Positions 45,076 to 60,028 of a stretch of 64,000 nucleotides of DNA are shown here, in pieces (within the stretch, counting starts at the first letter, position 1; each line of letters opens with the position of its first letter). Below the pieces are notes generated by a model. It was not told the origin of the DNA. It saw only the letters and a program-made list of their open reading frames with translations, and searched no databases. Source of the stretch: Candidatus Buchananbacteria bacterium (GTDB lineage Bacteria > Patescibacteriota > Patescibacteriia > 2-01-FULL-39-33); assembly GCA_903888345.1 (NCBI GenBank), contig CAISTG010000061.1, positions 18,512 through 82,511 on the forward strand, given 5' to 3'. Position numbers and translations under genes: made by a program.

Positions 45076-46865
45076 TGTTGTTATTTTTTATTATAATTTG
45101 GTTCGTGGCTTCGTGGTGGTTGGCTAATAAAATTTTAGCTAAGCTATTAAAGCTGGATAAAACAGTTATCAAATTGCTAGCTGTTTTTTTGCCGCTATTT
45201 ATTTTGGGACCATTAGCCAATGTCTTTACGGCCTGGCTTAAGTTGACTGATCTGACTATTTATTTGTCACTAATCTTAAGTTGGGTCAGTTTATTTGTTA
45301 TTGACCGCTACTTACTAAAGAAGACTGAATTAACTCAGGTTGTTGAAGCGGAAAAAGTTAGTCTCGACTTTTTTGTTTGGTCCAAGTGGTATTATTTAGT
45401 TTTTGGTTTAGTGGCAGTCAGGGGATTTTGGATGATTGCTCAGTTGGCTACTGGTAGCTCCTTGGCTAGTCCCTGGGAGATTCTAACTAGCTGGCTAATA
45501 CTGGTAATTGCATCCTTGGTGGTCATAATTGGCTATGCCATTTACTGTCGGAAAATTCCGACAGTAGCGACCTTAATCATGATCATGGTTTTTTCTTTAT
45601 TAATTCACTCCTATTTATTCGTCTATCAGAATGGTTTTGGCGGTGATCGTTTTCGTCATTTAGGTTCGGAAGAGAGGATTTTACAAGGCATAGAGTATCA
45701 ACCAACGCTACAGACGAATAATATTTGGTATAAAAATCTAGGACCACTCAAATATCCGCAAGCATTAACTGATAGTGCCAAGTTATCTTATGGCACGATG
45801 TGGTCACTGGAAGTGATTGTGGCGAAAGCGTTTGGTTGGCCAGTTTTTCAAATTAATCGTTTTATGTTGCCTGTATTGTGGTCGCTATTTTTGACCTTGA
45901 TAATTTTTGCCATGAGTTACGTGTTGCGACCAGATAAGCAATTAGCTTTGTGGTCGGCGCTGCTTGCTAATTCAGTTTATTTATTTCAGTATTATGGTGC
46001 GCAGGGGTTGCCGGCTTCTTATGGCTTATTGTGGTTAGCATTTTATTTTCTGTTACTAGTTGGCTATCTTAAAAATCCGGGCCGTTCCAGGTTATGGTTA
46101 CTAATCGCTGGCTTGGGTTTAATGTATTTTAATTATTCACTCGCTTTTTTATTAGCTGGTATCGGACTTCTTTTGGCCGTCACTTTAGTTAAGAAAAAAT
46201 TCTATATTTATCTAATAGCGCCACTTTCAATTGTCGCTTTAATTGGTTTAGATTATTTGTCGTCTCCGCTAGTTAACTTTTCTTGGTCGAAAATTTTGAG
46301 TTCCTGGTCATTTGGTAATTTCTTAACCTTTGAGTCGCTTAGTCGCTTAATCCCAATAATTGGCGAGTGGCATCGTTTGGATTATGCTTTATTAATTGTG
46401 GCGGCATTGATCATAATCTTGGGATTATTTAAATTATGGCACCGACAAGACCCAGTCGAGTTATTAATTTTACTAATGGCTAAAATAATTTTAGCCAGTT
46501 ATTGCTTAAGTTATTGGTTGCTTAATGGTGAGCATTCTTTGACTCGCCGCTTATCATTGTTTGCAATTTTATTTTTAGTACTGATAGTTGCTGGGGTGGT
46601 TGTGGACGGTATAAAAAGCAAGAAGAGCTTCGCAGTAGTTGTTGCTGCGGTCGTAGTACTGACAGCTTTAACCTATTATTCCGGACCGGTCTTACAGGTA
46701 AATATTAGTAATCGAGAAATCGCGAAAGCACAAGCCATCTGGCATGACATTAAGTCTCGACCCGAATATTGTGTTAAGGATGATTTAAATGTTATCTTAG
46801 CCCTGGAGTATGTTTCAGCGAAACAGTTTCAAGAGGAGATTAATAATCGCAATTGTGGTAGATAA
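45075..46865 (+). CDS. Polytopic membrane protein (596 aa), possible GT-C-like
   Basis: More than 12 TM helices. First loop 'YQNGFGGDRFRHLG'. 1-nt overlap (TAATG) with tatD. Confidence 0.35.
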   Translation: MLLFFIIIWFVASWWLANKILAKLLKLDKTVIKLLAVFLPLFILGPLANVFTAWLKLTDLTIYLSLILSWVSLFVIDRYLLKKTELTQVVEAEKVSLDFFVWSKWYYLVFGLVAVRGFWMIAQLATGSSLASPWEILTSWLILVIASLVVIIGYAIYCRKIPTVATLIMIMVFSLLIHSYLFVYQNGFGGDRFRHLGSEERILQGIEYQPTLQTNNIWYKNLGPLKYPQALTDSAKLSYGTMWSLEVIVAKAFGWPVFQINRFMLPVLWSLFLTLIIFAMSYVLRPDKQLALWSALLANSVYLFQYYGAQGLPASYGLLWLAFYFLLLVGYLKNPGRSRLWLLIAGLGLMYFNYSLAFLLAGIGLLLAVTLVKKKFYIYLIAPLSIVALIGLDYLSSPLVNFSWSKILSSWSFGNFLTFESLSRLIPIIGEWHRLDYALLIVAALIIILGLFKLWHRQDPVELLILLMAKIILASYCLSYWLLNGEHSLTRRLSLFAILFLVLIVAGVVVDGIKSKKSFAVVVAAVVVLTALTYYSGPVLQVNISNREIAKAQAIWHDIKSRPEYCVKDDLNVILALEYVSAKQFQEEINNRNCGR

Positions 46866-46881
46866 TTATTAAGATATTTAT

Positions 46882-47286
46882 ATGGACTGTATTTTTTGTA
46901 AAATCGTTGCGGGTGAAATACCGGCGACCAAAATTTATGAGGATGAAAATATTTTAGCCTTTTTGGATATTGCTCCGGTTAATCCCGGTCATACTTTGGT
47001 TATTCCTAAACCGCATTATGCTAATTTTATGGAATTGCCTGAAGAAGAGTCGGCTGTAATAATTAGAACCATCAAAAAATTGGCGGCTGGCGTAATAAAG
47101 GGAACTGGTGCCGAGGGTTTTAATCTTACCTTAAATAATGGGACCGTCGCCGGTCAAGTTGTGGGTCATGTGCATTGGCATATTGTACCGCGCTTTCCGG
47201 ATGATGGGCGAGTGCTTTGGCCTGGTCAAGTTTATCAGGAGGGTGAGGCCGCAGCGATTGCTGAAAAAATTAAACAACAATTATAA
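46882..47286 (+). CDS. HIT-family (histidine triad) nucleotide hydrolase
   Basis: 'HVHWHIVPR' HxHxHxx motif. Confidence 0.85.
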   Translation: MDCIFCKIVAGEIPATKIYEDENILAFLDIAPVNPGHTLVIPKPHYANFMELPEEESAVIIRTIKKLAAGVIKGTGAEGFNLTLNNGTVAGQVVGHVHWHIVPRFPDDGRVLWPGQVYQEGEAAAIAEKIKQQL

Positions 47287-47294
47287 ATAAAAGA

Positions 47295-47324
47295 CCCCGA
47301 GAGTTAAACTTTCGGGGTTTGTTG
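47295..47324. terminator. Bidirectional intrinsic terminator
   Basis: CCCCGAGAG-ttaaa-CTTTCGGGG followed by TTTGTTG, between convergent genes. Confidence 0.7.
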
Positions 47325-47326
47325 CT

Positions 47327-47860
47327 TTAGTAGCTAATATTTTGTCCTCGTAGTAATCGCGGCCGATTTGTTCTGTAGTCGCTAATAGCGATTAATTTGA
47401 CTGGATTTTCACATTCGGCAAACATTGTCTTGGCTGCTGCACAGGATTTTGCCCATTCGGCACCTGCTAGTTCGCTGAATTTTGTATCCCAATCTAGGTC
47501 AATGATGACCTCAGTAATTCCCGCTTCAATAATCATAATAGCGCATTTATCGCAGGGGGTACCATTGGTATACATGTGGCAACCATTGGTAGCTTGGCCG
47601 TACTTGGCAGCATTAGCAACAGCGGTCGCTTCGGCATGTCCTGAGTAGAAATATTTCTCGGGTCGCTCGTGACGCTCCGGAATGTCCTGTCTAACTCCCG
47701 CAGGAAAACCATTGAATCCCTTTGATATTATAACTTTTCGATTGGGGTCAACAATAATTGCTCCAATATGTGCGCTGCGGTCTCTGCTAAAATTGTCGGC
47801 GATTGAGTATACGATACTTAAATAGTGTTCTTCTGCATCTTTAACTGGTCTAATTTCCAT
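47327..47860 (-). CDS. dCMP deaminase (CMP/dCMP deaminase zinc-binding family)
   Basis: 'HAEATAVANAA' and 'PCDKCA' zinc-binding motifs. Confidence 0.8.
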   Translation of the reverse strand: MEIRPVKDAEEHYLSIVYSIADNFSRDRSAHIGAIIVDPNRKVIISKGFNGFPAGVRQDIPERHERPEKYFYSGHAEATAVANAAKYGQATNGCHMYTNGTPCDKCAIMIIEAGITEVIIDLDWDTKFSELAGAEWAKSCAAAKTMFAECENPVKLIAISDYRTNRPRLLRGQNISY

Positions 47861-47896
47861 TTTCTTGCTCCCATTGGTTGTTTGCTGTTTAAGGTC

Positions 47897-49243
47897 CTAT
47901 TGGATATTTAACTTGAAAACACCAAAGTTGTCAACTGCATAAAATAGATTTTGTCCAGCGCGGTCACTAACTAGGTGAGTGGCGTCGGACGCGGCAATGG
48001 TAATAATATTACGTAATTCACGATTATCTAATTCAATCAGTTTGATTTGCTTGTCGGTGGAAAAAATCAAATGACGTCCTTGTGGATGCCAAATCACGTT
48101 CCTAATCGAAGTACTAAGTCGCGTAATTAATTCTGGTTCAGCTTTGCCGGTTTCAAAAATGTAGATTTCAAAATCGTTATAAATAATTAGCGAATCACCA
48201 TTGAGCCATTGTAGGTTTTTGTAGGCTAAATCAACAGCTCGTGTTTGATTGGCTAAATCGATAATAGTTAAAATATTTTTTGTTGGGTCAACAATAAAAG
48301 CTTTATTGTTTTTAATTTGCTTGATTTGGCAACTAACGCAGGTTATCTTTTTGATATCTTTGGCGCCCTCACCGGTTAAGGTTTGCTGCGTTAACAATTG
48401 GTTACTAATAGTGTAGAGAACTTTGTTGACGATATAGAAATCATCGAGTCCGGATTTTTTCAATACTAGTTTTGGTGATAGTGAAGTTAAATCATACTGC
48501 CAAAGTGTAGTGGCGTCTAGAGCATAAAGATTATCACTGTTACTATCCCAATGAATGCTTTTGTAGTTTTTACCTGACAATTGCTTGAAGTCTTTAGTTA
48601 AGGTGTCTAAGACGAAGTAATTTGTTTGTTGGTTTTTGGAAGCCAGAATCAAGAGATGACGACCCGACGGCGAGAAGGAATCTAACTTAAGAGAATCATA
48701 GTTAATAACCGCAGCATTAGTACTTTTGACGGCGCCAATAGTTTCGATCTTACCGCCAGTTAATTCACCGAAGATGCCAGAATTAATATCCAGCAACGAA
48801 AGATTATTATGGTCATCGGTCAGGACGACGATATTTTGATCTGGCGTGATGAGCCAATCGGTAACAGTTGAAGTACTTAACGACTGCGAGTTCGATTTTT
48901 TCCAGAGCATGATTTTTTCGGCGAAGGTTGTGCCGTTTTCATAAACAGCCAATTTTTTTTGCCAGTCATAGTAGCCGTCCTTAGAGAGAGAAATTTCATA
49001 ATCACCTGGCAGCAGGTATTCAATTTTCGCCGGTGTCAGGCTGGTTTCGTAGCGTTGGCCATTTAATTTAATGGTTGCCGCTTTAGGATTCGAAGTAATT
49101 TTAAGAATTCCCGTTTTTTGGACTCGTCCTTTTGTTAGATTATAACGATAGCCCATAGTATAAAGAATAACAAGGGGCGACGCAATCAGAAAAATGGAAA
49201 TAAAAGCTACGTAGGTTATTCTTCGGTGGATTGGAGTTTTCAT
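47897..49243 (-). CDS. Membrane-anchored PEGA-domain protein with beta-propeller-like C-terminal region
   Basis: N-terminal TM, then 'ILKITSNPKAATIKLNGQ...LLPGDYEISLSKDGYYDW' (PEGA). Confidence 0.5.
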   Translation of the reverse strand: MKTPIHRRITYVAFISIFLIASPLVILYTMGYRYNLTKGRVQKTGILKITSNPKAATIKLNGQRYETSLTPAKIEYLLPGDYEISLSKDGYYDWQKKLAVYENGTTFAEKIMLWKKSNSQSLSTSTVTDWLITPDQNIVVLTDDHNNLSLLDINSGIFGELTGGKIETIGAVKSTNAAVINYDSLKLDSFSPSGRHLLILASKNQQTNYFVLDTLTKDFKQLSGKNYKSIHWDSNSDNLYALDATTLWQYDLTSLSPKLVLKKSGLDDFYIVNKVLYTISNQLLTQQTLTGEGAKDIKKITCVSCQIKQIKNNKAFIVDPTKNILTIIDLANQTRAVDLAYKNLQWLNGDSLIIYNDFEIYIFETGKAEPELITRLSTSIRNVIWHPQGRHLIFSTDKQIKLIELDNRELRNIITIAASDATHLVSDRAGQNLFYAVDNFGVFKLNIQ

Positions 49244-49298
49244 AAAATTTTATTAGCAATAAACTCGTCTCAAAAGTTAATACGAGACGGTTGCCTTC

Positions 49299-50552
49299 TT
49301 AGTCAGATATTTTTTCAATTTTTGCTCCGAGGGCTTGTAGCCGATTGATTGGGCTTTCATAGCCGCGTTCGATTTGATAGATATTATCGATGATGGTGGT
49401 GCCCTGGGCGATTAAACCGGCCAAGACTAGGGCCATGCCAGCTCGCAAGTCAGGTGATTCTAATTTTCTGCCAAAGAGTGGCGTTGGACCGGAAACAATC
49501 ACGCGATGCGGATCACACATAATAATATTGGCGCCCATCGCGTTCAATTTGTCAGTATAAAATAGACGGCCATCATAAATAACTTCATGGATTAATGATA
49601 ATCCCTTAGCTTGTGTCATGAGCACTGTAAAAGGTGCTTGTAAATCAGTCGGGAAGCCTGGGTATTCGTGAGTTCGTAATTCAATCGCTTTTAATTTGGA
49701 AGGAAAAGTTTTGATGTAATCGGTGCCAACCTCTAGTTTTGCACCTGCTTTTTTTAGAGTTGCTAAAACCACTTCTAAATGTTGAGGCTGACAATTAGTA
49801 ACTTTAATTTCGCTATTGGTTAATAATCCCATAATGACGAAGCTTCCGGCTTCAATGCGATCGGGAATAATTGCACAAGTGCCGCCCCCGAGATTTTTTA
49901 CGCCTTCGATAGTGATAATCGGAGTGCCAGCACCGGAAATTTTAGCACCACAAGAATTTAAGTAATCAGCTAAAGCGGGAATTTCTGGTTCCATGGCCGC
50001 ATTAACGATAGTAGTTATTCCTTGAGCTAAGCAGGCTGTCATCATTAAACTTTCTGTGGCCGTGACTGCGATCCAGGGTAACACAATTTTAGCGCCTTTT
50101 AGTTTTTTGGCGCGCAAAGTGTAATGGCTGTCATGCTCTTCTATTTTGGCGCCCAAAGCTTCGAATCCGGCTAGGAACATATCAATGGGGCGTTTGCCAA
50201 TAACACAGCCGCCAGGATGGGCCATAGTTACTTCACCAAAACGAGCTAGTAGTGGCCCAGCAAACATCACTGAGGTTCTAAGTTTACGTACTAACTCTGC
50301 TGTGGGCTCGGTTTTATTGATGCCACTAGTTTTAATAGTAACTTGATTTTTGGTTTGTTCAATTTCGGCTCCTAAATCGGTTAAAATTTCTAGCATGCGG
50401 CTAGTGTCTTCAATTTCAGGAAAATTGGTAATAGTGCAAGGCTCGGCCGACATGACACAGGCCGCTAAGACCTTTAGCGCCTGATTTTTGGCCCCAGAGA
50501 CAGCAATGGTTCCAGTTAATTTGTGCCCGCCTTCAATTGAGTATTTAGTCAT
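49299..50552 (-). CDS. murA: UDP-N-acetylglucosamine 1-carboxyvinyltransferase
   Basis: 'IEGGHKLTGTIAVSGAKN' MurA N-terminus. 417 aa. Confidence 0.9.
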   Translation of the reverse strand: MTKYSIEGGHKLTGTIAVSGAKNQALKVLAACVMSAEPCTITNFPEIEDTSRMLEILTDLGAEIEQTKNQVTIKTSGINKTEPTAELVRKLRTSVMFAGPLLARFGEVTMAHPGGCVIGKRPIDMFLAGFEALGAKIEEHDSHYTLRAKKLKGAKIVLPWIAVTATESLMMTACLAQGITTIVNAAMEPEIPALADYLNSCGAKISGAGTPIITIEGVKNLGGGTCAIIPDRIEAGSFVIMGLLTNSEIKVTNCQPQHLEVVLATLKKAGAKLEVGTDYIKTFPSKLKAIELRTHEYPGFPTDLQAPFTVLMTQAKGLSLIHEVIYDGRLFYTDKLNAMGANIIMCDPHRVIVSGPTPLFGRKLESPDLRAGMALVLAGLIAQGTTIIDNIYQIERGYESPINRLQALGAKIEKISD

Positions 50553-50620
50553 AGTTTTAGAGTGATTGATGTTTATAGCTTAACATTTATTGCCATATTT
50601 GTCGACTTAGAGTGTAGCTA

Positions 50621-50649
50621 TTGACATTTTTATTTATTTGTGGTTATAT
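50621..50649 (+). promoter_or_regulatory. Sigma70-like promoter (TTGACA-17-TTATAT)
   Basis: -35 TTGACA at 50621-50626, 17-nt spacer, -10 TTATAT at 50644-50649, about 90 nt upstream of the ORF at 50737. Confidence 0.45.
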
Positions 50650-50736
50650 ATTAGAAGCTGTCGTCAGTAGATGACAAAAGAACCTTACAATAATCAGTGG
50701 AATTGGCCATTGATTCAACCAGCAGGAGATTAGCCA

Positions 50737-51408
50737 ATGGTGCCTTCGCAGTTAACTTTTCGGCGACATGCTTGTGATCGGTTGGCCGAAAGATTGTCAC
50801 TAACGGCTGAAGAAGTAATCGAGATAATCGACAATGACCTTTGCGTCTTAATCGGGGAAGAAGATAACCGCTATCATAAAGTATTTTATAGTCGGCCAGA
50901 TAAGCAATGCTTTGTCGCCATTCATGACCATGAAACTAATGAACTGGTCACTATCTTGCCGCTTGATTACCATCATCGTTGGCAAATATCTGAAGCAGTT
51001 TACTTCGAGGCTAAAGCCAAAATTTGTCCTTATGAGTTAACTCGGCCAGTTCAGCTGGAGCCAGTGTCGGAAATTCCGGCCGTGGTCTGTCCGTCTGCGC
51101 CCCTAGTTACTCCCCAGCAGGTAACCGCTAACGGTGCTAAAGAGCCGAGCGTTAACCTGAGGTTCATCTGTTATTTTCGGGGACGGATTGATGGCCGAGC
51201 ACATACCGCATCCTTTGGTTCCAAATTCTTGCTCGCCAATGTCAAGGAGCAGCTGGAAAGAATCGACCTGAAACAGCTGATCAAAAATAATGTTTCGGCT
51301 GATATTTGGAATGATTGCGAATTGCAATCGGTCTATTATCGTATCGGCAAGGATCGAACTTTGCATGAGTTTAATATAAGTGTTCCCGTAGAAATTCCGA
51401 GCGAGTGA
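50737..51408 (+). CDS. DUF4258-like (toxin-domain) protein with unknown C-terminal extension
   Basis: 'FRRHACDRLAERLSLTAEEVIEII...KVFYSRPDKQCFVAIHDHETNELVTILP' matches the DUF4258 pattern 'HAxxRMxERGIS-EEV...VVv..e.n.iVTVy'. GC visibly higher than neighbours. Confidence 0.5.
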   Translation: MVPSQLTFRRHACDRLAERLSLTAEEVIEIIDNDLCVLIGEEDNRYHKVFYSRPDKQCFVAIHDHETNELVTILPLDYHHRWQISEAVYFEAKAKICPYELTRPVQLEPVSEIPAVVCPSAPLVTPQQVTANGAKEPSVNLRFICYFRGRIDGRAHTASFGSKFLLANVKEQLERIDLKQLIKNNVSADIWNDCELQSVYYRIGKDRTLHEFNISVPVEIPSE

Positions 51409-52121
51409 CATTGGACGCAAAATATATTTTTCAACCTAACAAGTTAATCGACGCGGCGATAACCGCGCCACAACCAGAAAGGATGCGGAAAATGAACGAA
51501 GAATCAGTTTGGGATGAAAAATTTTTGACTGGTAAGCGAGTTTTGGTTGTTGATGAAGATCAGGGGTTGGTTGATAGTAATGTGGATTTGATGAGGATTT
51601 GGGATGCGAGTGAAGTTGATACTGCCCTGGATGCAACAACCGCTTTGGAGAAAATGAAGACCGAACCCTTCTATGACTTGGTGGTGCTCGAGATTGTCTT
51701 GCCCTTAAAACCAGAGTTGGCCGAAAAAATGGAACGTTGCAAAAATGCGCTTTCCGATCTCAGTCGGCAAAGAAACGCCCTGGTTGAGTCGCCGGACTTC
51801 GAACATGATGAGGCCAATCAAAAGTTTCAGGAAGCCAAAAGATTGGAACGTAAGATATCGTTTGTCGGTCAAACGGCAGATGACTCGCTGTATTTTAGGG
51901 CAGGATTGGAAGCGTTAATGGACTTGTCTAGTTATCTGAAGGCCAAGTTCGGTGATGACTTTGCCTCCAAGTTGCCGATTTTGGTACTGACGTCTCAGGA
52001 TAGCTACCTCGATGTCGCGTACCTGTTGAAGAGTACAGGATTGAATTATCGGCTCCTGGGTAAAGGAGCTAATATGGTGGCGATAGCAGCCAACATCAAA
52101 CGGCTGCTCAGTTTAGCCTAA
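51405..52121 (+). CDS. Degenerate receiver (REC)-like domain protein
   Basis: 'KRVLVVDEDQ', 'DLVVLEIVLP' (Glu where the phospho-acceptor Asp would be) and 'LPILVLTSQD' REC beta-strand motifs, with a roughly 75-aa insertion. Confidence 0.45.
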   Translation: MTLDAKYIFQPNKLIDAAITAPQPERMRKMNEESVWDEKFLTGKRVLVVDEDQGLVDSNVDLMRIWDASEVDTALDATTALEKMKTEPFYDLVVLEIVLPLKPELAEKMERCKNALSDLSRQRNALVESPDFEHDEANQKFQEAKRLERKISFVGQTADDSLYFRAGLEALMDLSSYLKAKFGDDFASKLPILVLTSQDSYLDVAYLLKSTGLNYRLLGKGANMVAIAANIKRLLSLA

Positions 52122-52138
52122 GTTCCTTATTTGACCAC

Positions 52139-52167
52139 AAGTCAAGGAGATTCTCCTTGACTTTTTT
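52139..52167 (+). terminator. Intrinsic terminator
   Basis: AAGTCAAGGAGA/TCTCCTTGACTT perfect inverted repeat followed by T6. Confidence 0.75.
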
Positions 52168-52273
52168 ATTTATTCTGCTATACTTAAAGCATATTCCGTA
52201 GAAAGTGGGTAAGGAGTTACAAAACCTTATAAATCCTACTGAGGAAAATAGCTTATTTTAGCTACTTTTACTA

Positions 52274-52294
52274 CTGCGGAAACGCAGTTTTTTT
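52274..52294 (+). terminator. Intrinsic terminator (second, stand-alone)
   Basis: CTGCG-gaaa-CGCAG (GNRA tetraloop) followed by T7. Confidence 0.65.
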
Positions 52295-52357
52295 GTTGCT
52301 CAAAGCAAATTAATTGCGGTATATTAAATTCACCCCGTTTAATAAAATTATATTTCA

Positions 52358-52469
52358 TATAATTTATGATTTGAACCCAGTTTAAATTAATGGGGTGAGT
52401 AAAGTTAATTAATAATCATATGATACAGAATAAGTAATATTATTCAAATCATATTTAACAGGGTAAACT
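52358..52469 (+). promoter_or_regulatory. Conserved 5' leader/promoter cassette upstream of rplJ (candidate L10 autoregulatory leader)
   Basis: Contains a long-range pairing 'TCACCCC' (52318-24) with 'GGGGTGA' (52393-99). Shares about 110 nt of similarity with the region upstream of cvpA. Confidence 0.4.
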
Positions 52470-52973
52470 ATGCCGAAAACAAAAGCACAAAAGACCGCTA
52501 TTTTGGAAACCTTAGGCGATAAGATTTCTCGAATGAAGTCCGCTGTTATGTTCAATTATGCTGGCATTGAAGTTAAGAACCTCAATAAACTCCGCGACAA
52601 GTGTCGTGCCGAGGGTATTGATTACATGGTTGCTAAAAAGACTTTATTAAAAAAGGTTTTAAGCGACAAAGGCTTAACCTCAGCTGCTGATCAAGGTTTT
52701 GGTGGAGAAATCGCTACTTTATTTTCTTATGATGATGAAGTTGCTCCAGCTCGACTCGTTGCCGCTTTCGCTAAAGAAAACGACAAAGTAAAATTTGCCG
52801 GTGGTATCTTTGAAGGTAACTTCATTGACGTTACTAAGGTCACAGAATTATCTAAGATCCCTTCTCGCAAAGAGTTGTTGGCCAAGGTGGTTGGTTGTTT
52901 ATCCAATCCAATGTCCGGCTTAGCTCGTGTTATTAATGCGATTAAGGAAGACAAAGAAAAGTTAGCTGCCTAA
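52470..52973 (+). CDS. rplJ: 50S ribosomal protein L10
   Basis: 'KAQKTAILETLGDKISRMKSAVMFNYAGIEVKNLNKLR' L10 N-terminus. Confidence 0.9.
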   Translation: MPKTKAQKTAILETLGDKISRMKSAVMFNYAGIEVKNLNKLRDKCRAEGIDYMVAKKTLLKKVLSDKGLTSAADQGFGGEIATLFSYDDEVAPARLVAAFAKENDKVKFAGGIFEGNFIDVTKVTELSKIPSRKELLAKVVGCLSNPMSGLARVINAIKEDKEKLAA

Positions 52974-53003
52974 TAAATCTAAAAATAATAATAAAACAAA
53001 AAT

Positions 53004-53393
53004 ATGGACGAGCAAAAAGAAATCATTGTTCCTGAGAAATTCAAATCCTTAGTTGAACAAATCGATAAGTTATCAGTCGTTGATTTGGCTGAATTGGTAA
53101 AAGTTTTAGAAGAAAAGTTTGGCGTTTCTGCCGCTGCTCCAGTCATGGTAGCCGCTGCCGCTGGTGCCGCTGTTGAAGAAAAAGATAGCTTTGATGTTGA
53201 ATTGACTAACGCTGGCGCTAGCAAGATCAATGTTATTAAAGTGGTTAGAACTATCACTAGCTTGGGCTTAAAAGAAGCTAAAGATTTAGTTGATGGCGCT
53301 CCTCAAATTGTTAAAGAAGGTGCTAAGAAAGAAGAAGCTGAAAAAATTAAGAAAGAATTAGAAGAAGCTGGCGCTACTGTCACTCTTAAATAA
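53004..53393 (+). CDS. rplL: 50S ribosomal protein L7/L12
   Basis: '[24 protein letters not shown]' with Ala-rich hinge and '[33 protein letters not shown]'. Confidence 0.92.
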
Positions 53394-53426
53394 TTGATTA
53401 GATAATCAATCAATTGGAAATAAAAA

Positions 53427-53475
53427 ATACGTCCGGTCACCAGTTTTAATAAGCTGGAGCTGGACGTATTTTTTG
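53427..53475. terminator. Bidirectional intrinsic terminator (long imperfect hairpin)
   Basis: A-run, ATACGTCC...GGACGTAT outer stem with inner CCAG/CTGG pairing, then T6. Lies between rplL (+) and the convergent minus-strand gene. Confidence 0.6.
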
Positions 53476-53493
53476 TTGTCGAAACAATTTTAA

Positions 53494-55764
53494 TTAAAAA
53501 TCTAAATCAATCTGATAAATCTTGCCGGCCTTAAAGATCCAAGCCTTTTTTTCTTTGTATTGAGCAGCAAAAGCGGAAGAGGAAACAAATTGATTGGCGG
53601 CATATTGTTTTTTGAGGACGCCAGCCTTATCAAAAACAATCAATTTGCCAAGTTGGCCGTCCAAGAACCAGTTATAATTGTCGACTTCACTCGACATAGC
53701 AATAGTGGAAGAGGCGAGTGGTGGATCAACTAAAGGTGAGATAGTAGTGGGATTTTTGAGCAGGAAGTATTCTTTTGCGGGCTTACTAATTTTAGTGGCA
53801 GAATTCTTAGCAACGTCGTATTTGTAATAGTCTCCAGATTTTGCTTGCAATAATAAACTCTTGTCATCGATGGCAGTTAATTTTTTGATAGTCGGCAAAC
53901 TACTGGTGCGTAACTCTAATTTATCAGTTAGCGTATCGACGCGCAATAAATTACGATTGGCGTTATCGAAAACCCAAAACACTTTAGCTGTTCGAGCCAT
54001 ACCAACTAATTCGCTTAAATTTTGGCTTTTATTGAAATCGGCAAGGAGTTTCGGGTCAGCGATATAAGTGATGCGCTGTAAAGTGTAACTGGTGGTGTTA
54101 ATTTTGTCAGTTAATTGTTGTTTAAGGCTGTTGGTTGATCGTTTAGTCGGGATGGTTGCTAGCAGCTCCTTGGCTTTTTTGATGGCAGCGAGGGCACCAG
54201 CTTCGTCATTGAAGATGTTTTGCGCTTCAGCGGTATTAAGTTGAGTCTCAATATTTTTAGCAATTTGGTCATAGCCTGATCCAGTACCGCTAGCTTGATC
54301 AGTGGATCGTCCGATCATGACGATACTTTGCGAGAAGACGAAGAGCAGAACTAGGGCGGCGACAATGGCAATTTTCTGAGTTCGCCTAAAATTTAAAAAA
54401 ATAACAATTTGACGATTGAGCCAGCGATTAATGTGATCGGTTAGTGACTGGTCTGATATTGAAGGTGATAAATTGGCCGCCTCATCGACGAGAACTTCGG
54501 TTGATGACGCCTGAAGTGTGTCTTGATCGTAGTTATGATCATCTAGCGCTGCAATATTTTCGTTAATGGTCGCTTCAATGGATTCGCTGATTGTTATTGG
54601 GGCTGGATTAACGGTTGGCGTGGAATTATTTAATGTGATGGTTGGCTGGGCGGCTGGTTTGATTTTTATTTTGGCTGCTCTAGCCTTAATAACGCTAGCC
54701 AGGCCCAAGCTGAATTTTTTGGTTTGAATGATTGTTGCTCCAGTAAATTTTTTTAGACCTCCCCAGATTATAATCAATATTTTCTGCCAATTCGGCATTA
54801 GTGATGGGGTTAGGTATTTCTCAGTTTTGACTTGAGTATAAATTAAATGGTCAATTGATTGTTGTGGTTTGATATTCCGCACAACTGCTTGGTCAACCTT
54901 ATGGTTTAGGGTTTGAGTTTCGACTCGGGTTGGCGGTAATGGGGTTGGTGGCATGGTCGGAGCGGGAGAGTGGCGCAGTGGCAACGGCGCGTCAGCACTA
55001 GTTGCTGGTTCACTAATTTTTGTTTGGCGTTGTGACTCGATCTGCTCTAAGGCTGTTGATTCGACTAAAATATCCGGTCGTAAGGCAACAGCGTAAAAAT
55101 TTTTCTTGGCGATTTTTTCTTTAAGTGTCGTATCGATAATTTTTAGGGCTTCAGTGGGTGGGTTGCTGAGGGTGATGTCGGCTAAATCGTTTTGAGCGAA
55201 GTAACCTAAAAACTCTTCGTTAATGAAAATTAAGGCGTCTTTTTCTGAAAGTTCGCCACTTAAAATATTAGCAAAAATCTTTTCCGATTCCGGTTTGAAG
55301 GCTTTTTCTTGGCTACCAGCGAGAATATCAAACAACATTAACTCGGAACTTTTTTTACGACGACTAAAAAGTCCTTTGATGCGTCCGGTCGAAGAAATAT
55401 AAATTTTGTTTTCAAAAATGACGCCTAACACCGCAGAAATATTGCGGCAATCAACTTCTTCAATTGATTGAGTTAAAGCGTTCTGGATTCGGCGGTTTGC
55501 TCTGGCCAGTGCTTCTTCAAAGCGCTTTTCGATGCCGCGCTCTAAATTGTGTGGTGGCAAATAATATTCAGTTTTCAAATCATTGATAGCCTCCAAAAAA
55601 CCGTCAATGAAAGTGTCATTGATGTTGTAAATTTCGATGATGCCAAATAACACTCCAAGCTTTTTGGCTAGGTCTTTTTCTGGCTGAACAATAAAAGAAT
55701 CGCCGATAATGTTGCCGTCGGCTTCTAGGGCCAATTTGGCAGTTTTGATGTTAATTCCTTCCAT
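53494..55764 (-). CDS. Large single-pass membrane protein (756 aa): N-terminal cytoplasmic domain, Pro-rich linker, TM, extracytoplasmic C-terminal domain
   Basis: TM 'IAIVAALVLLFVFSQSIVMIG' near residue 450, Pro-rich 'PLPLRHSPAPTMPPTPLPPT'. No confident family assignment. Confidence 0.4.
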   Translation of the reverse strand: MEGINIKTAKLALEADGNIIGDSFIVQPEKDLAKKLGVLFGIIEIYNINDTFIDGFLEAINDLKTEYYLPPHNLERGIEKRFEEALARANRRIQNALTQSIEEVDCRNISAVLGVIFENKIYISSTGRIKGLFSRRKKSSELMLFDILAGSQEKAFKPESEKIFANILSGELSEKDALIFINEEFLGYFAQNDLADITLSNPPTEALKIIDTTLKEKIAKKNFYAVALRPDILVESTALEQIESQRQTKISEPATSADAPLPLRHSPAPTMPPTPLPPTRVETQTLNHKVDQAVVRNIKPQQSIDHLIYTQVKTEKYLTPSLMPNWQKILIIIWGGLKKFTGATIIQTKKFSLGLASVIKARAAKIKIKPAAQPTITLNNSTPTVNPAPITISESIEATINENIAALDDHNYDQDTLQASSTEVLVDEAANLSPSISDQSLTDHINRWLNRQIVIFLNFRRTQKIAIVAALVLLFVFSQSIVMIGRSTDQASGTGSGYDQIAKNIETQLNTAEAQNIFNDEAGALAAIKKAKELLATIPTKRSTNSLKQQLTDKINTTSYTLQRITYIADPKLLADFNKSQNLSELVGMARTAKVFWVFDNANRNLLRVDTLTDKLELRTSSLPTIKKLTAIDDKSLLLQAKSGDYYKYDVAKNSATKISKPAKEYFLLKNPTTISPLVDPPLASSTIAMSSEVDNYNWFLDGQLGKLIVFDKAGVLKKQYAANQFVSSSAFAAQYKEKKAWIFKAGKIYQIDLDF

Positions 55765-55999
55765 TAGCTGATTAAGTATCTTATTTAGAGCAAAATTAAC
55801 CGCTAACTCCGCTAAATTGGACTTTTAGCGGGAGGCGGTTAGGCGGCGGGGTTTACCCTATATAAATAACGCAATTTTCTGTACATAATTGGCACTAATC
55901 GAATTTGATTAGTCTCTGACGTGTATGTCGTAATTTAATAGGGTTTACAATTGATCATTAATATTATACAATAAATATAAAGATATAGCAAAATAAATT

Positions 56000-56593
56000 A
56001 TGTTGGATAAGTTATTCGGATCGAAAACCAGGGTTTTACTACTGCGGTTATTTTTAAACAATCCCGAGAAGTATTTTTATGTCCGCGAATTGGCGCGTAA
56101 TTTGGAATCACATTTAAATAGTATCCGTCGTGAGTTGGATAATTTAGAAGAAATTGGCATTTTACTTTCGATTGATAAACCGGCAGATGAAGCCGGCGAA
56201 GAAGAGGCCGGTAATCGTAAATATTACAAACTCAACAAAGCTTTTTCTTTTGTTGATGATTTGCAGTCGTTGTTTGTCAAAGCGCATATGCTAACGGAAA
56301 ATACTTTAGCTGATAAGGTGGCGAAATTAGGCGACATTGATTTATTTTTGTTGGCTGGTGCCTTTGTTGGACAATTGGATGCGGCGTGTGATGTTTTAAT
56401 CGTTGGTTCAATTCCGAAACAAAAAGTGCAACGGTTAATTGTAAAATTTGAAAAAGAAATGGCCCGCACACTTAATTATGCTATCATGACTCAGAAAGAA
56501 TTCAGTTATCGCCGTAGTGTGGCTGATAAATTTTTGCTCGATATTTTAGAAAATAAGAACTTAATACTAATTAATCGTTTTAAGGAAGAATAA
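56000..56593 (+). CDS. Winged-helix (ArsR-like) DNA-binding protein with uncharacterised C-terminal domain
   Basis: 'TRVLLLRLFLNNPEKYFYVRELARNLESHLNSIRRELDNLEEIGIL' HTH/wHTH pattern. Confidence 0.5.
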   Translation: MLDKLFGSKTRVLLLRLFLNNPEKYFYVRELARNLESHLNSIRRELDNLEEIGILLSIDKPADEAGEEEAGNRKYYKLNKAFSFVDDLQSLFVKAHMLTENTLADKVAKLGDIDLFLLAGAFVGQLDAACDVLIVGSIPKQKVQRLIVKFEKEMARTLNYAIMTQKEFSYRRSVADKFLLDILENKNLILINRFKEE

Positions 56594-56618
56594 GCAAGTT
56601 CACCAATTAAAAAATACC

Positions 56619-57980
56619 ATGCGTTTTTTATTGAAGTTGCTGCTTTGTTTTGTTGTCGGTGTCTTAATGATGCCGATTTTTGCGTCGGCGCGAACCATGC
56701 CGGAAGTCAAGATATTTGATGTTAATGGCCAGTTAAAGCAAACAGTAAAAATCTTGAATGACGGTTATAATGGTTCGGTTAATTTTGCGGTTGGCGATAT
56801 CTTAGCCGGAGATGCTAAGGAGTTAGTCATTTGTCAGGGGGCGGGAACCAGTACTAAGATTTGGATTTATGATTTAGCCGGCGATGTACTAGAGAGCTTT
56901 TTCCCCTATGGAGAAGGCTTTAACGGTGGTTGCTCGGTGGCTTTGGCAGATAATAATGGTGACTTAAAAGATGAAATTATTGTTGGCGCTGGTGCGGGCG
57001 GTGGCCCACAAGTTAAAGTTTTTAAGGGTAGTTATGAACAACGCAGTTTTTTTGCTTTTGATAAAAAACAGCGCAATGGAGTTAAGATTGCATCAAGAGA
57101 TTTGGGTCACGATGGTCGAGCAGAAATTATAGCTTTTTCTAATTATAATCAAGTGCCCGAATATGATATTTTTGATAATAGTGGAGCTAAGATTGCTGGT
57201 TATAAGCTGTCAGATTTGAATAATAATGGGGTTGATTTGGTGGTGGGTGATTTTAATGGTGATGGCCTGAAAGAAACGGCCTATATTGGTGGTTATGGCA
57301 ATAAATTAGAAATAAAAATTGTTGGTTATAAGAATAAGTTGTTAAAAACAATACCTTATGCCAATGTTGATTTCAGGGGCAGTTTAAATTTGGCGGCAGG
57401 TGACATTAATAATGATGGGCAAGAAGAGTTGGTGGTGACAGAGGGTTATGGCGGCAATGGTCAAGTTAGTATTTATAATTTTGACGGGGTAATTGTTAAG
57501 TCTTTTAAGGCTTTTGATAATTTTTCTGGTGCTTTGGGTGTGGCGATTAATGATATCGATAATGACGGTCGTCCCGAGATAATTATTTTACCAGAACAGC
57601 TCGGCGCCGATTTACAGAATTCAGCCTACAAATTCGCAACTGTTGATTTGACTACACAAACCGCTTTTCGTTATCAAGACGGAAAATTATTGGACACCTT
57701 TTTAATTTCTTCTGGTAAGGCACCGAATCTGACTCCATTAGGAGCTTATGCGGTGACGCGAAAGCGACCTAGTGTCCATATGACTGGTCCCGGCTATGAT
57801 CTGCCAGGGGTGCCCTGGGTAACATCGTTTTTTGGTGCGTTCACTTTTCATGGTACCTATTGGCATCATAACTTCGGTCATCCGATGAGTCATGGTTGTA
57901 TTAATATGAAAACTCCGGAAGCAAAAATTATTTATGATTGGAGTCAGGTGGGGATGCCGGTGATCATCTTTCAAAGTTAA
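56619..57980 (+). CDS. Secreted FG-GAP/VCBS-repeat protein with C-terminal L,D-transpeptidase (YkuD) catalytic domain
   Basis: Signal peptide. Repeats 'GDFNGDGLKE', 'GDINNDGQEEL' and 'NDIDNDGRPEI'. Catalytic 'HGTYWHHNFGHPMSHGCINM' (H...SHGC). Confidence 0.8.
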   Translation: MRFLLKLLLCFVVGVLMMPIFASARTMPEVKIFDVNGQLKQTVKILNDGYNGSVNFAVGDILAGDAKELVICQGAGTSTKIWIYDLAGDVLESFFPYGEGFNGGCSVALADNNGDLKDEIIVGAGAGGGPQVKVFKGSYEQRSFFAFDKKQRNGVKIASRDLGHDGRAEIIAFSNYNQVPEYDIFDNSGAKIAGYKLSDLNNNGVDLVVGDFNGDGLKETAYIGGYGNKLEIKIVGYKNKLLKTIPYANVDFRGSLNLAAGDINNDGQEELVVTEGYGGNGQVSIYNFDGVIVKSFKAFDNFSGALGVAINDIDNDGRPEIIILPEQLGADLQNSAYKFATVDLTTQTAFRYQDGKLLDTFLISSGKAPNLTPLGAYAVTRKRPSVHMTGPGYDLPGVPWVTSFFGAFTFHGTYWHHNFGHPMSHGCINMKTPEAKIIYDWSQVGMPVIIFQS

Positions 57981-57997
57981 AAAATTGATATATCTTA

Positions 57998-58024
57998 AAG
58001 CAGCCGAAGTTAGGCTGCTTTTTA
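57998..58024 (+). terminator. Intrinsic terminator
   Basis: AAGCAGCC-gaagtta-GGCTGCTT followed by TTTT. Confidence 0.65.
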
Positions 58025-58165
58025 GTCTTGACTAAAAAATTTAATTGAGGTATTGTTCTAAATTAGATCTGCTTTGGCAGGCTAGCGTACTTTTAAAAAG
58101 GTCGATCTGGGGTTCTGACATAGGGTTGGAGCGTAGGGGTCGGCTATAATAGAGGAGGACAAAAT

Positions 58166-58915: not shown

Positions 58916-58936
58916 CATTTAAAATGAACCATCTTT

Positions 58937-58965
58937 ACGCGACGAGCTTGGCTCGTCGCGTTTTT
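58937..58965 (+). terminator. Intrinsic terminator
   Basis: ACGCGACGAGC-ttg-GCTCGTCGCGT (11-bp stem) followed by T5. Confidence 0.8.
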
Positions 58966-59046
58966 AAATTATTTTGATAAATTGCCAAATTACCTTATAA
59001 TTGTTAGTATAAAGTCATCATCAGGTTTGATTATTAAGCTAAAACG

Positions 59047-60021: not shown

Positions 60022-60028
60022 AAATATT

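What the first reader, a model, noticed from the sequence alone, without database searches (positions are those of the whole stretch)
50737..52121. GC-elevated two-gene island between murA and rplJ: DUF4258-like toxin-domain protein + pseudo-receiver protein
Both ORFs look compositionally distinct (roughly 45-47% GC by eye, against about 38-40% locally). They are inserted where rplK-rplA-type genes usually precede rplJ. The first has an N-terminal DUF4258-like domain (a predicted RNase-type toxin fold seen in polymorphic toxins and TA pairs) with a novel ~150-aa C-terminal extension. The second is a receiver-like domain with Glu replacing the phospho-acceptor Asp ('DLVVLEIVLP') and a ~75-aa helical insertion. 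A 4-bp start/stop overlap suggests translational coupling. The island has its own promoter (TTGACA-17-TTATAT) and terminator. It is a candidate toxin/immunity or regulatory module of horizontal origin.
Basis: partly seen in the sequence, partly recalled or inferred. Interest (0 to 1): 0.55.

Follow-up and report, generated by a model that had tools for sequence, protein, structure and literature searches.

The report
Swapped accessory cassette upstream of rplJ
Between murA and the ribosomal rplJ operon sits a real GC-rich two-gene cassette: a very divergent copy of a widespread unnamed gene (distantly like RelE/DUF4258 RNase toxins) that all relatives keep at this spot, plus a strain-only orphan receiver-domain gene; a toxin/immunity pair is not supported.

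Summary
Both ORFs exist. Their GC is 45.6% against 39.9% for the window, which puts them 2nd and 3rd of 59 ORFs.

ORF2 is a receiver (REC) domain with Glu96 at the phospho-acceptor position and a 63-aa insertion.

- **ORF1 is not an insertion.** Five related contigs carry an ORF1 homolog in the same murA–rplJ slot.
- **The allele here is anciently diverged.** It shares 47% aa identity with relatives whose MurA is 95% and L10 96–99% identical. Its synonymous sites are saturated. This points to allelic replacement.
- **ORF1 belongs to a large unnamed family.** The family has 632 clusters at 50% identity, a typical length of about 207 aa, and two domains. Members also lie on 392 PLSDB plasmids (362 Klebsiella) and phage-like contigs.
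- **The C-terminal "extension" is family-wide.** It is not novel.
- **The DUF4258 link is sub-threshold.** The best member scores 20 bits against a 25-bit cut-off. The closest relevant fold match is HigB2, and it is not significant.
- **ORF2 is an orphan.** It is absent from every relative and every other family locus, so it is a recent add-on and not a cognate immunity gene.
- **Complete genes with only the N-domain and no partner exist.** This argues against a constitutive toxin.

Function remains inferred. Interest is moderate.

The parts
49299..50552 (-). murA, the left conserved flank.
   Evidence: EPSP_synthase family in the syntenic loci. It is 94-95% aa identical to L010/L011 and 81% to L004.
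50621..50649 (+). Probable promoter of the cassette: TTGACA, 17 nt, (TGg)TTATAT.
   Evidence: Read from the sequence. The -35 and spacing are conserved in L001, L004, L010 and L011. The consensus scan did not call it.
50737..51408 (+). ORF1, 223 aa, a two-domain member of a large unnamed family.
   Evidence: Exhaustive HMM search: 632 clusters at E<=1e-3 and 321 at E<=1e-10. The RBS GGAG lies 9 nt upstream. The AF2 model has pLDDT 85.
50749..51036 (+). ORF1 N-domain (residues 5-100), with a beta-alpha-alpha-beta4-alpha topology that is RelE/DUF4258-like.
   Evidence: Near-invariant residues H11, R19, G40, H47, F50, S52, D55, F59, D64, T72, L74, and Y78 in the closest members. pLDDT is above 90. 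DUF4258 hits are sub-threshold. HigB2 Foldseek match: probability 0.80, E 0.23. dN/dS is 0.07 between L010 and L011.
51037..51147 (+). ORF1 linker (residues 101-137), Pro-rich and predicted disordered.
   Evidence: pLDDT about 57. Length is variable across the family.
51148..51372 (+). ORF1 C-domain (residues 138-212), beta2-alpha3-beta2, family-specific and fast-evolving.
   Evidence: pLDDT about 90. The C-domain HMM matches family members at E 1e-15 to 1e-5. 33-34% aa identity to close relatives. dN/dS of the C-part is 0.54. GC3 is 0.50.
51405..52121 (+). ORF2, longest frame 238 aa from GTG. The probable real start is ATG 51492 (209 aa). It is an orphan aspartate-less receiver domain protein.
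   Evidence: Only 100%-identical copies exist in public data. No match in plasmids, phages or viral contigs.
51534..51704 (+). ORF2 REC N-half (residues 44-100). The acidic pocket is D50/E51/D52. Glu96 (codon 51690-51692) sits at the phospho-acceptor position.
   Evidence: NCBIfam REC hits on residues 44-104. The alignment to PhoP 1mvo puts 'DLVVLEIVLP' on 'DLIVLDVMLP'.
51705..51893 (+). ORF2 insertion (residues 101-163), charged and helical, between beta3 and alpha3 of the REC fold.
   Evidence: Deleting it raises the Pfam Response_reg score from no hit to 35.7 bits, E 1.1e-8. Alone it gives only coiled-coil-type noise hits.
51894..52118 (+). ORF2 REC C-half (residues 164-238). T196 is the conserved Thr. 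K220 is the candidate conserved Lys.
   Evidence: Alignment 'PILVLTSQD' on 'PILMLTAKD' of PhoP. The K220 assignment is an inference from the sequence.
52139..52173 (+). Intrinsic terminator of the cassette: 11-12 bp stem plus a T-run. Its 3' arm contains the -35 of the rplJ promoter.
   Evidence: I2. A homologous hairpin lies in L004 directly after the 98-aa homolog.
52157..52184 (+). rplJ promoter: TTGACT, 16 nt, TATACT, with TG.
   Evidence: Conserved in L001, L004, L010 and L011.
52178..52302 (+). L10 leader-like RNA with attenuator hairpin; start of the right conserved flank.
   Evidence: RF00557 at 38.6 bits, E 3.6e-4, below the 44-bit gathering score. 90-97% nt identity to relatives. Structure is conserved in 5 relatives with 3 compensatory pairs.
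52470..52973 (+). rplJ (L10), followed by rplL.
   Evidence: Ribosomal_L10 Pfam family in the syntenic loci. 96-99% aa identity to L010/L011.

Best explanation
The region from about 50620 to 52165 is a variable accessory cassette in a conserved slot. The slot lies between murA and the rplJ promoter and L10 leader.

Transcription (inferred from sequence signals): the cassette runs from its own promoter to a terminator that overlaps the -35 of the rplJ promoter. It is therefore insulated from the ribosomal operon.

ORF1 (shown): it belongs to a large unnamed two-domain family found on chromosomes of uncultured small-genome bacteria, on phage-like contigs, and on Klebsiella and Burkholderia plasmids. 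All relatives keep a family member in this slot. The allele in this genome is anciently diverged from theirs, which indicates allelic replacement by recombination.

ORF2 (shown): it is an orphan receiver domain with Glu at the phospho-acceptor site and a 63-aa insertion. It was added only in this strain, upstream of the pre-existing terminator, so it is co-transcribed with ORF1.

Function (inferred):
- ORF1's N-domain is a RelE/DUF4258-type (BECR-like) RNA-directed domain with a polar His/Arg/Asp/Tyr site.
- Its fast-evolving C-domain tunes specificity or gates activity.
- It works as a self-contained conflict or accessory factor without an obligatory partner.
- ORF2 is a phosphorylation-independent adaptor or regulator that was recruited secondarily. 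It is not a family-level antitoxin.
For: Slot conservation:
- L004 is collinear with window 44200-60439 and has a 98-aa homolog between murA and rplJ.
- L001, L010, L011 and L012 carry 213-214-aa homologs directly upstream of rplJ.

Divergence from the flanks:
- MurA is 94-95% and L10 96-99% identical, but ORF1 is 47-48% (N-domain 64-66%, C-part 33-34%).
- Nucleotide identity is about 84% in murA. It falls from about 50619, is near random in the ORF1 C-part, and returns to 90-98% from 52165.
- pS of the ORF1 N-domain is 0.75-0.78, against 0.59 for murA and 0.19-0.20 for rplJ.

Family:
- 632 clusters, median length 207 aa, 131 of 149 members with the C-domain.
- The N-domain is under purifying selection (dN/dS 0.07) and the C-part is relaxed (0.54).
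- The N-domain consensus hits 392 plasmids. The N-domain HMM scores E 1.7e-23 on Klebsiella WP_004883204.1.
- One member lies on an IMG/VR contig.

Fold and homology:
- AF2 pLDDT 85 with a beta-alpha-alpha-beta4-alpha N-domain.
- HigB2 is the best relevant PDB match (probability 0.80).
- PF14076 is the top Pfam hit for 7 of 149 members. In P0142 and P0025 the match spans the whole domain.

ORF2:
- Response_reg 35.7 bits after removing residues 101-163.
- 14 PDB receiver domains match, and E96 aligns to the phospho-Asp.
- It has no homolog anywhere else.
- GC3 is 0.51.
- The terminator after ORF2 is homologous to the one after the L004 homolog.
Against: - No significant sequence or fold match ties ORF1 to any characterised enzyme. 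Pfam gives nothing for ORF1 itself. Foldseek against PDB has no hit at E<=1e-3. hhalign against HigB gives 0.7% probability.
- RNase activity, gating by the C-domain, and any ORF1-ORF2 contact are untested.
- The left boundary of divergence is a gradient rather than a sharp break, and the promoter and 5'UTR are still homologous to relatives. In-situ acceleration cannot be fully separated from replacement.
- The low rplJ divergence may reflect codon constraint or its own recombination.
- ORF2 exists only as identical copies, so selection on it cannot be measured.
Confidence: 0.5

Rival explanations
1. ORF1 is a DUF4258-type toxin and ORF2 is its cognate immunity or antitoxin protein, forming a translationally coupled bicistron acquired horizontally.
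For: - DUF4258-like similarity, below threshold.
- The two genes are adjacent on the same strand within one promoter-terminator unit.
- Both are GC-elevated.
- DUF4258 is classed as a BECR-fold TA toxin family (PMC11980606).
Against: - ORF2 has no homolog beside any other family member in about 14 contexts, including four syntenic relatives.
- Complete genes with only the N-domain stand alone with no room for a partner (L004, L008).
- ORF2 has no antitoxin-type DNA-binding domain.
- The likely ORF2 start is 84 nt downstream of the ORF1 stop.
- The gene order reported for DUF4258 TA pairs is antitoxin first.
Confidence: 0.12
2. ORF1 is a lineage-conserved housekeeping or translation-linked factor. 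Examples would be an RNA-processing or ribosome-associated RelE-fold protein. It evolves fast, and its position next to rplJ is functional.
For: - The slot is conserved in five relatives.
- The N-domain is under strong purifying selection between L010 and L011.
- Other family members sit next to rplI, nusA and rpoD.
Against: - Synonymous sites are saturated and aa identity is 47% where the flanks are 95-99%.
- A terminator and a separate rplJ promoter and leader insulate it from the operon.
- Members occur on conjugative plasmids and phage-like contigs and in unrelated contexts: MsrA/B, CopA, HEPN/NTase.
- In small genomes adjacency to information-processing genes is expected often by chance (inference).
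Confidence: 0.15
3. ORF1 is a mobile-element establishment or anti-defence type gene, of the kind carried in plasmid leading regions and phage early regions. It has become fixed in a chromosomal hot spot.
For: - 392 PLSDB plasmids match, and 365 of them are typed conjugative.
- In Klebsiella IncFIB/IncHI1B plasmids the homolog lies in a roughly 30-kb one-directional array of small hypothetical genes next to repB.
- The P0160 contig carries DUF932 and many small ORFs.
- One member is on an IMG/VR contig (L009).
- The slot also took up a 511-aa gene in L010 and ORF2 here.
Against: - There are no integrase, transposase or other mobile-element genes around the window locus.
- The family gave no match in 50,697 cultured phage records.
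- The plasmid region was not shown to be the leading region.
Confidence: 0.15
4. ORF2 is not a working gene. It would be a decaying fragment of a response regulator carried in by recombination, and only ORF1 matters.
For: - It is an orphan with no homologs.
- It has lost the phospho-Asp and has a large insertion.
- Gene callers disagree on its start: 238, 236 or 209 aa.
Against: - The frame is intact for 238 codons with coding-like GC1>GC2.
- REC core residues are retained: D50/D52 and T196.
- There is a good Shine-Dalgarno before Met30.
- The sequence is identical in at least five assemblies from different samples.
Confidence: 0.08

Closest known systems
DUF4258 (Pfam PF14076), a BECR/RelE-ParE superfamily toxin-type domain of unknown activity
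   Same: - The N-terminal 'F-T-x-H-A-x-x-R-x-x-E-R-L' helix motif.
- A domain length of about 70 aa.
- An alpha-alpha-beta4 topology.
- Family members P0142 and P0025 align over profile positions 2-67/71 and 1-69/71.
- Fusions of DUF4258 to a C-terminal second domain (MqsA) are known (PMC11980606).
   Different: - All scores are below Pfam's 25-bit cut-off. ORF1 itself gives no hit, the family consensus 14.3 bits, and the best member 20.2 bits.
- There is no neighbouring antitoxin.
- The C-domain is not MqsA or any known antitoxin.
- The family has its own extra conserved block, 'LFYSxxDxxCFVAVQD...TxLPxDYH'.
HigB/HigB2 and RelE ribosome-dependent mRNA endonuclease toxins
   Same: - Best relevant structural match: HigB2 5ja8_E, Foldseek probability 0.80, TM 0.47 on the target.
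- A conserved 'DYH' follows the last strand. This resembles the C-terminal 'EDYH' of P. vulgaris HigB, whose sequence was verified against 4mct_B. The catalytic role of those HigB residues is from my own knowledge and was not tested.
   Different: - E-value is 0.23, and hhalign probability is 0.7%.
- There is no HigA-type partner.
- An extra C-terminal domain is present.
- Stand-alone N-domain genes exist.
Aspartate-less or pseudo-receiver domains (atypical response regulators)
   Same: - ORF2 has the REC core: beta1 acidic residues, the beta3 'LxIxLP' motif and the beta4 'LVLTS' motif.
- Glu replaces the phospho-Asp.
- It is a stand-alone domain without an output domain.
   Different: - A 63-aa charged helical insertion lies between beta3 and alpha3, and full-length ORF2 fails the Pfam model.
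- There are no homologs at all, and no kinase or partner is evident.
Variable accessory-gene slots (hot spots) flanked by conserved core genes
   Same: - The flanks are conserved while the content varies: a 98-aa gene (L004), a 213-214-aa gene (L001, L010-12), an added 511-aa gene (L010), and an added ORF2 (window).
- The content is compositionally deviant.
   Different: - The slot is very small, at 0.3-2.5 kb.
- It always retains one member of the same family.
- No integrase or att-type repeats are present. The 18-nt repeat at 50621 and 52157 is explained by promoter similarity.

Membership tests
DUF4258 (PF14076) | Score at or above Pfam's gathering threshold (25 bits). | tested here: not met
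   ORF1 gives no hit at E<=10. The family consensus scores 14.3 bits on profile positions 1-27 only. The best members score 20.2 and 17.8 bits. 7 of 149 members hit at E<0.01.
DUF4258 (PF14076) | BECR/RelE-like alpha/beta fold. | tested here: inconclusive
DUF4258 (PF14076) | Adjacent antitoxin gene; antitoxin-toxin order according to PMC11980606. | tested here: not met
   No conserved neighbour was found in about 14 contexts. The syntenic relatives are monocistronic.
DUF4258 (PF14076) | Growth-inhibiting or RNase activity. | not testable with these tools
   This needs expression and biochemical assays.
Response regulator receiver domain (PF00072) | Score at or above the gathering threshold (30.2 bits). 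| tested here: met
   Full-length ORF2 gives no hit. With residues 101-163 removed it scores 35.7 bits, E 1.1e-8, on profile positions 1-89/111. Only one of four deletion variants scored. The same construct hits 14 PDB receiver domains at E 1e-4 to 1e-2.
Response regulator receiver domain (PF00072) | Phospho-acceptor Asp at the end of beta3. | tested here: not met
   Glu96 aligns to the Asp of 'DLIVLDVMLP' in PhoP 1mvo.
Response regulator receiver domain (PF00072) | Acidic pocket after beta1, and the conserved Thr/Ser and Lys. | tested here: met
   'VLVVDEDQ' aligns to 'ILVVDDEE' and 'PILVLTSQD' to 'PILMLTAKD'. K220 as the conserved Lys is an inference from position.
Response regulator receiver domain (PF00072) | Cognate histidine kinase nearby. 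| not tested
   No kinase appears among the neighbours I examined. The rest of the genome was not available.
Type II toxin-antitoxin or polymorphic toxin-immunity pair | The two genes co-occur across homologous loci. | tested here: not met
   ORF2 is absent from all other ORF1-family loci.
Type II toxin-antitoxin or polymorphic toxin-immunity pair | Tight coupling, such as overlapping start and stop codons. | tested here: inconclusive
   The GTGA overlap exists, but no Shine-Dalgarno precedes the GTG. ATG 51492 has AAAGGA at 8-nt spacing and is the start called in other assemblies.
Horizontally acquired genomic island | Deviant composition. | tested here: met
   99.9th percentile for GC. GC3 is 0.50-0.51 against a mean of 0.393 (sd 0.04).
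Horizontally acquired genomic island | Absent from close relatives at the same site. | tested here: inconclusive
   ORF2 is absent in L001, L004 and L010-12, so this is met for ORF2. ORF1 has a homolog in all of them, so it is not met for ORF1, although this allele has saturated synonymous divergence.
Horizontally acquired genomic island | Mobility genes or flanking att-type repeats. | tested here: not met
   There is no integrase or transposase. The 18-nt direct repeat at 50621 and 52157 is the two promoters' -35 plus spacer. The left copy is the native ORF1 promoter, homologous to that of L011.
L10 leader (RF00557) | Score at or above the gathering threshold (44 bits). | tested here: not met
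   38.6 bits, E 3.6e-4. However, the position upstream of rplJ, 90-97% conservation and 3 compensatory pairs in 5 relatives all support it.

The most novel reading that the evidence does not exclude
The ORF1 family may be a previously unrecognised class of single-chain, self-gated BECR-type RNases. These would be conflict effectors of plasmids, phages and small-genome bacteria that need no separate antitoxin. On this reading, the locus has caught the birth of a new two-gene system: an aspartate-less receiver with a novel insertion (ORF2) has just been recruited as a trans-acting regulator or antidote of a swapped-in allele.
Probability: 0.1. Interest if true: 0.7.

Novelty: new variant of a known kind. 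Interest (0 to 1): 0.4.

Why it matters
- **An unnamed family becomes visible.** It has at least 632 clusters at 50% identity and no Pfam model. It carries a strongly conserved polar site and sits on hundreds of clinically relevant Klebsiella conjugative plasmids as "hypothetical protein", as well as in uncultured small-genome bacteria. A function for it would annotate many genes at once.
- **The locus is a clean natural example of cassette exchange.** The slot is tiny and insulated, right in front of a ribosomal operon.
- **It shows an orphan receiver domain being added to an existing transcription unit.**

None of this overturns current ideas, and the function is still inferred.

Tried and rejected
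- **Family scans.** Pfam, PHROGs, NCBIfam and PADLOC scans of ORF1 gave nothing. For ORF2 they gave only weak hits to the REC N-half.
- **Word-indexed protein searches.** These found 1 homolog of ORF1 and none of ORF2. Repeating with the family alignment found only 6 proteins, none with a name.
- **First AF2 model from a 2-sequence alignment.** Quality was poor (pLDDT 57) and Foldseek gave nothing.
- **Profile searches of PDB sequences with the family alignments (A1 and A2).** No relative was found.
- **Foldseek against PDB and against viral structures with the good model.** No hit reached E<=1e-3. The viral hits were small uncharacterised proteins.
- **hhalign of the family against P. vulgaris HigB.** No similarity, so the 'DYH' resemblance stays a lead only.
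- **BLASTP of the ORF2 core against CheY.** Not significant.
- **RNA structure between the ORF1 stop and ORF2 Met30.** z = -0.5, so nothing is there.
- **The 18-nt direct repeat bracketing the cassette as an att site.** Rejected. The left copy is the native promoter, homologous to that of L011, and repeats of this size occur at 3 loci in the window.
- **Motif search for rplK and nusG in the window.** Neither was found, so the rplKA-rplJL split is a lineage trait and was not caused by this cassette. This was a weak motif test.
- **Search for ORF2 relatives in plasmids, phages and viral contigs.** None found.
Full report
**1. Observation**

The two ORFs are present as described: ORF1 at 50737-51408 (223 aa) and ORF2 at 51405-52121 (238 aa from GTG).

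Measured GC is 45.7% for ORF1 and 45.6% for ORF2, against 39.9% for the window. The interval lies at the 99.9th percentile of same-length sliding windows. Only a region near 60200 is higher. Among 59 long non-overlapping ORFs the two rank 2nd and 3rd.

ORF2 has GC3 0.51 and the 3' part of ORF1 has 0.50, against a mean of 0.393 (sd 0.04). The ORF1 N-domain has GC3 0.39, which is native-like.

A strong intrinsic terminator lies at 52139-52163 and is followed by a T-run. The proposed promoter, TTGACA(50621)-17-TTATAT, fails a strict -10 rule. It does have a TG extended -10, and its -35 and spacing are conserved in relatives.

**2. What lies to the right**

Directly after the terminator comes a TTGACT-16-TATACT promoter. 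After that comes an L10-leader-like RNA at 52178-52302. It scores 38.6 bits against RF00557 (E 3.6e-4), which is below the 44-bit gathering score. The structure is conserved in five relatives with three compensatory pairs. The rplJ-rplL operon therefore has its own control region, and the cassette is insulated from it.

**3. ORF1 is not an orphan, and its C-terminal part is not novel**

The word-indexed search found only one homolog. The exhaustive HMM search with the two sequences found 632 representative clusters at E<=1e-3 and 321 at E<=1e-10.

Typical length is 207 aa. The first roughly 100 residues are strongly conserved. Near-invariant positions are H11, R19, G40, H47, F50, S52, D55, F59, D64, T72 and L74. 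The consensus reads FTxHAxxRxxERL...RxHxLFYSxxDxxCFVAVQD...TxLPxDYH. 131 of 149 members also carry the C-terminal domain.

With the 149-sequence alignment, AlphaFold2 gives pLDDT 85. It predicts three parts:
- an N-domain with beta-alpha-alpha-beta4-alpha topology;
- a disordered Pro-rich linker (residues 101-137);
- a C-domain with beta2-alpha3-beta2 topology.

**4. DUF4258 likeness**

ORF1 itself has no Pfam hit even at E<=10. Of 149 family members, 7 hit PF14076 at E<0.01. P0142 scores 20.2 bits and P0025 scores 17.8 bits. Both align over essentially the whole 71-position model, but both are below the 25-bit cut-off. The family consensus reaches only 14.3 bits.

Foldseek against PDB gives no hit at E<=1e-3. 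The best relevant match is the RelE-family toxin HigB2 (5ja8_E) at probability 0.80, E 0.23. hhalign against P. vulgaris HigB shows nothing. I verified that HigB sequence against 4mct_B.

The N-domain therefore works like, and is probably distantly related to, DUF4258/RelE-type (BECR) domains. Membership by the family's own criterion is not met. DUF4258 itself is listed as a BECR-fold TA toxin family of unknown activity, and DUF4258-MqsA fusions are known (PMC11980606).

**5. Synteny**

L004 is a 26-kb metagenome contig with 49% GC. It is collinear with window 44200-60439 and has a 98-aa homolog containing only the N-domain between murA and rplJ. L001 (214 aa), L010 (213 aa) and L011/L012 (213 aa) also carry a homolog directly upstream of rplJ. 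None of them has ORF2.

The murA-ORF1-rplJ arrangement is therefore ancestral to the lineage. In L010 a 511-aa Ig-like gene is additionally inserted between murA and the homolog, so the slot behaves as a small hot spot.

**6. The allele here is swapped**

| Comparison with L010/L011 | Value |
|---|---|
| MurA aa identity | 94-95% |
| L10 aa identity | 96-99% |
| ORF1 aa identity | 47-48% (N-domain 64-66%, C-part 33-34%) |
| L010 vs L011 ORF1 homologs | 91% identical at 96% MurA identity |
| pS, ORF1 N-domain | 0.75-0.78 (saturated) |
| pS, murA | 0.59 |
| pS, rplJ | 0.19-0.20 |

Nucleotide identity to L011 runs as follows:
- about 84% across murA;
- it falls from about 50619, averaging about 64% in the N-domain;
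- it is near random in the C-part;
- ORF2 is an insertion;
- identity returns to 90-98% from 52165.

Within the L010/L011 pair, the N-domain has dN/dS 0.07 and the C-part 0.54.

The simplest reading is replacement of the resident allele by a deeply diverged one. The foreign part most likely came from a GC-richer relative, given GC3 of 0.50-0.51. The left edge is a gradient and not a clean break. The promoter and 5'UTR are still recognisably homologous.

The 18-nt direct repeat at 50621 and 52157 is the -35 plus spacer of the two promoters. It is not an att site.

**7. ORF2**

Full-length ORF2 fails Pfam Response_reg, though several NCBIfam response-regulator models weakly match residues 44-104. 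Removing residues 101-163 gives Response_reg at 35.7 bits, above the 30.2-bit cut-off, with E 1.1e-8. Only one of four deletion variants scored. The same construct hits 14 solved receiver domains.

In the PhoP alignment:
- 'DLVVLEIVLP' matches 'DLIVLDVMLP', so Glu96 replaces the phospho-Asp;
- 'VLVVDEDQ' matches the acidic pocket;
- 'PILVLTSQD' matches the conserved Thr.

ORF2 is thus an aspartate-less stand-alone receiver with a 63-aa charged helical insertion between beta3 and alpha3.

It has no homolog in 5.8 billion clustered proteins other than itself. It also has none in plasmids, phages or viral contigs, and none next to any other ORF1-family gene. Identical copies occur in at least five assemblies from other samples.

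Its start is uncertain. Gene callers gave 238, 236 and 209 aa. ATG 51492 has the best Shine-Dalgarno. The 4-bp overlap is therefore not good evidence for translational coupling.

The hairpin after ORF2 is homologous to the one directly after the L004 homolog. ORF2 was therefore inserted inside the existing transcription unit.

**8. Context of the family elsewhere**

No partner gene is conserved. The neighbours seen were:

| Neighbour or setting | Locus |
|---|---|
| nusA | L003 |
| nucleotidyltransferase/HEPN-like pair (my reading of the ORF sequences, no HMM scan) | L005 |
| CsoR-like repressor/CopA-like ATPase (my reading of the ORF sequences, no HMM scan) | L007 |
| MsrB-like (my reading of the ORF sequence, no HMM scan) | L008 |
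| MsrA (PMSR family) | L016-18 |
| rpoD and patatin | L019 |
| rplI | L024 |
| metallophosphoesterase | L023 |
| IMG/VR viral contig | L009 |
| phage- or plasmid-like contig with DUF932 | P0160 contig |

The N-domain consensus hits 392 PLSDB plasmids. Of these, 362 are Klebsiella and 365 are typed conjugative. In an IncFIB/IncHI1B plasmid the 193-aa 'hypothetical protein' WP_004883204.1 scores E 1.7e-23 against the N-domain HMM. It lies in a long one-directional array of small unannotated genes beside repB.

Complete genes with only the N-domain, all conserved polar residues intact, and no adjacent partner exist (L004, L008). This is hard to reconcile with a constitutively active toxin that needs an antidote.

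**9. Mechanism**

Shown:
- a separate promoter-terminator unit;
- a two-domain protein with a conserved polar N-domain site and a fast-evolving C-domain;
- allelic replacement;
- strain-specific gain of an Asp-less receiver inside the unit.

Inferred:
- The N-domain is an RNA-directed BECR-type module.
- The C-domain modulates it.
- The protein acts as a self-contained accessory or conflict factor.
- ORF2 acts without phosphorylation as a binding adaptor or regulator.

I put about 0.5 on this composite. The evolutionary description carries about 0.85 and the biochemical part about 0.3. The rivals, with their weights, are in the Rival explanations section: a true toxin-immunity pair (0.12), a housekeeping translation-linked factor (0.15), a mobile-element establishment or anti-defence gene (0.15), and a decaying ORF2 (0.08).

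**10. Verdict**

The finding is real and more interesting than a chance GC blip, but it is not a new kind of system. It comprises:
- a new variant of a known kind, namely a DUF4258/RelE-like domain in an unnamed two-domain family;
- an atypical orphan receiver;
- a neat but unsurprising cassette-exchange history.

Interest is 0.4.

Noticed in passing
window 52358-52472 and 43566-43677: A roughly 115-bp element lies between the L10 leader and the rplJ start codon. It is repeated at 78% identity directly upstream of the start codon of the CvpA/Colicin_V-family gene at 43675. Both copies end at the ATG. The element is absent upstream of rplJ in relatives L001, L010 and L011. It may be a mobile or duplicated promoter/5'UTR module.
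   Followed up: partly
window 60499-61581 (minus strand): This 359-aa ORF has no Pfam family and is the GC-richest ORF of the window (GC 0.468, GC3 0.52). It accounts for the only sliding window with higher GC than the finding, so it may be another import.
   Followed up: no
L010 3601-5136 (minus strand): In a close relative, a 511-aa gene is inserted between murA and the ORF1 homolog. It has a faint bacterial surface Ig-like hit and GC of 0.469. The murA-rplJ gap therefore takes up accessory genes repeatedly.
   Followed up: partly
L020 4973-5554 (Klebsiella pneumoniae plasmid NZ_CP057314.1); L021 (Paraburkholderia plasmid): Clear homologs of the ORF1 family, annotated only as hypothetical proteins, sit on 392 PLSDB plasmids. 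Most are conjugative IncFIB/IncHI1B Klebsiella plasmids. In the plasmid examined the homolog lies in a roughly 30-kb unidirectional block of small unknown genes near repB. That block also holds Cas6 and a helicase (possibly a CRISPR-type module; my inference), plus umuDC.
   Followed up: partly
window 50621-50638 and 52157-52174: An 18-nt direct repeat, TTGAC(A/T)TTTTTATTTATT, matches at 17 of 18 positions and brackets the cassette exactly. Both copies are the -35 plus spacer of promoters. The left copy is homologous to the ORF1 promoter of L011, so this is probably promoter similarity and not an attachment site.
   Followed up: yes
window 52470-53393 versus L010/L011: rplJ-rplL and the leader are 93-100% identical in nucleotide sequence to relatives whose murA is only 77-84% identical. 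pS is 0.19-0.20 for rplJ against 0.59 for murA. Either codon constraint is strong or there has been recent recombination of the ribosomal operon between lineages.
   Followed up: partly
L024 1994-3122; L003; L019: Family members lie immediately upstream of rplI (L9), next to nusA, and downstream of dnaG-rpoD in other uncultured genomes. A possible bias toward information-processing neighbourhoods was not tested statistically.
   Followed up: no
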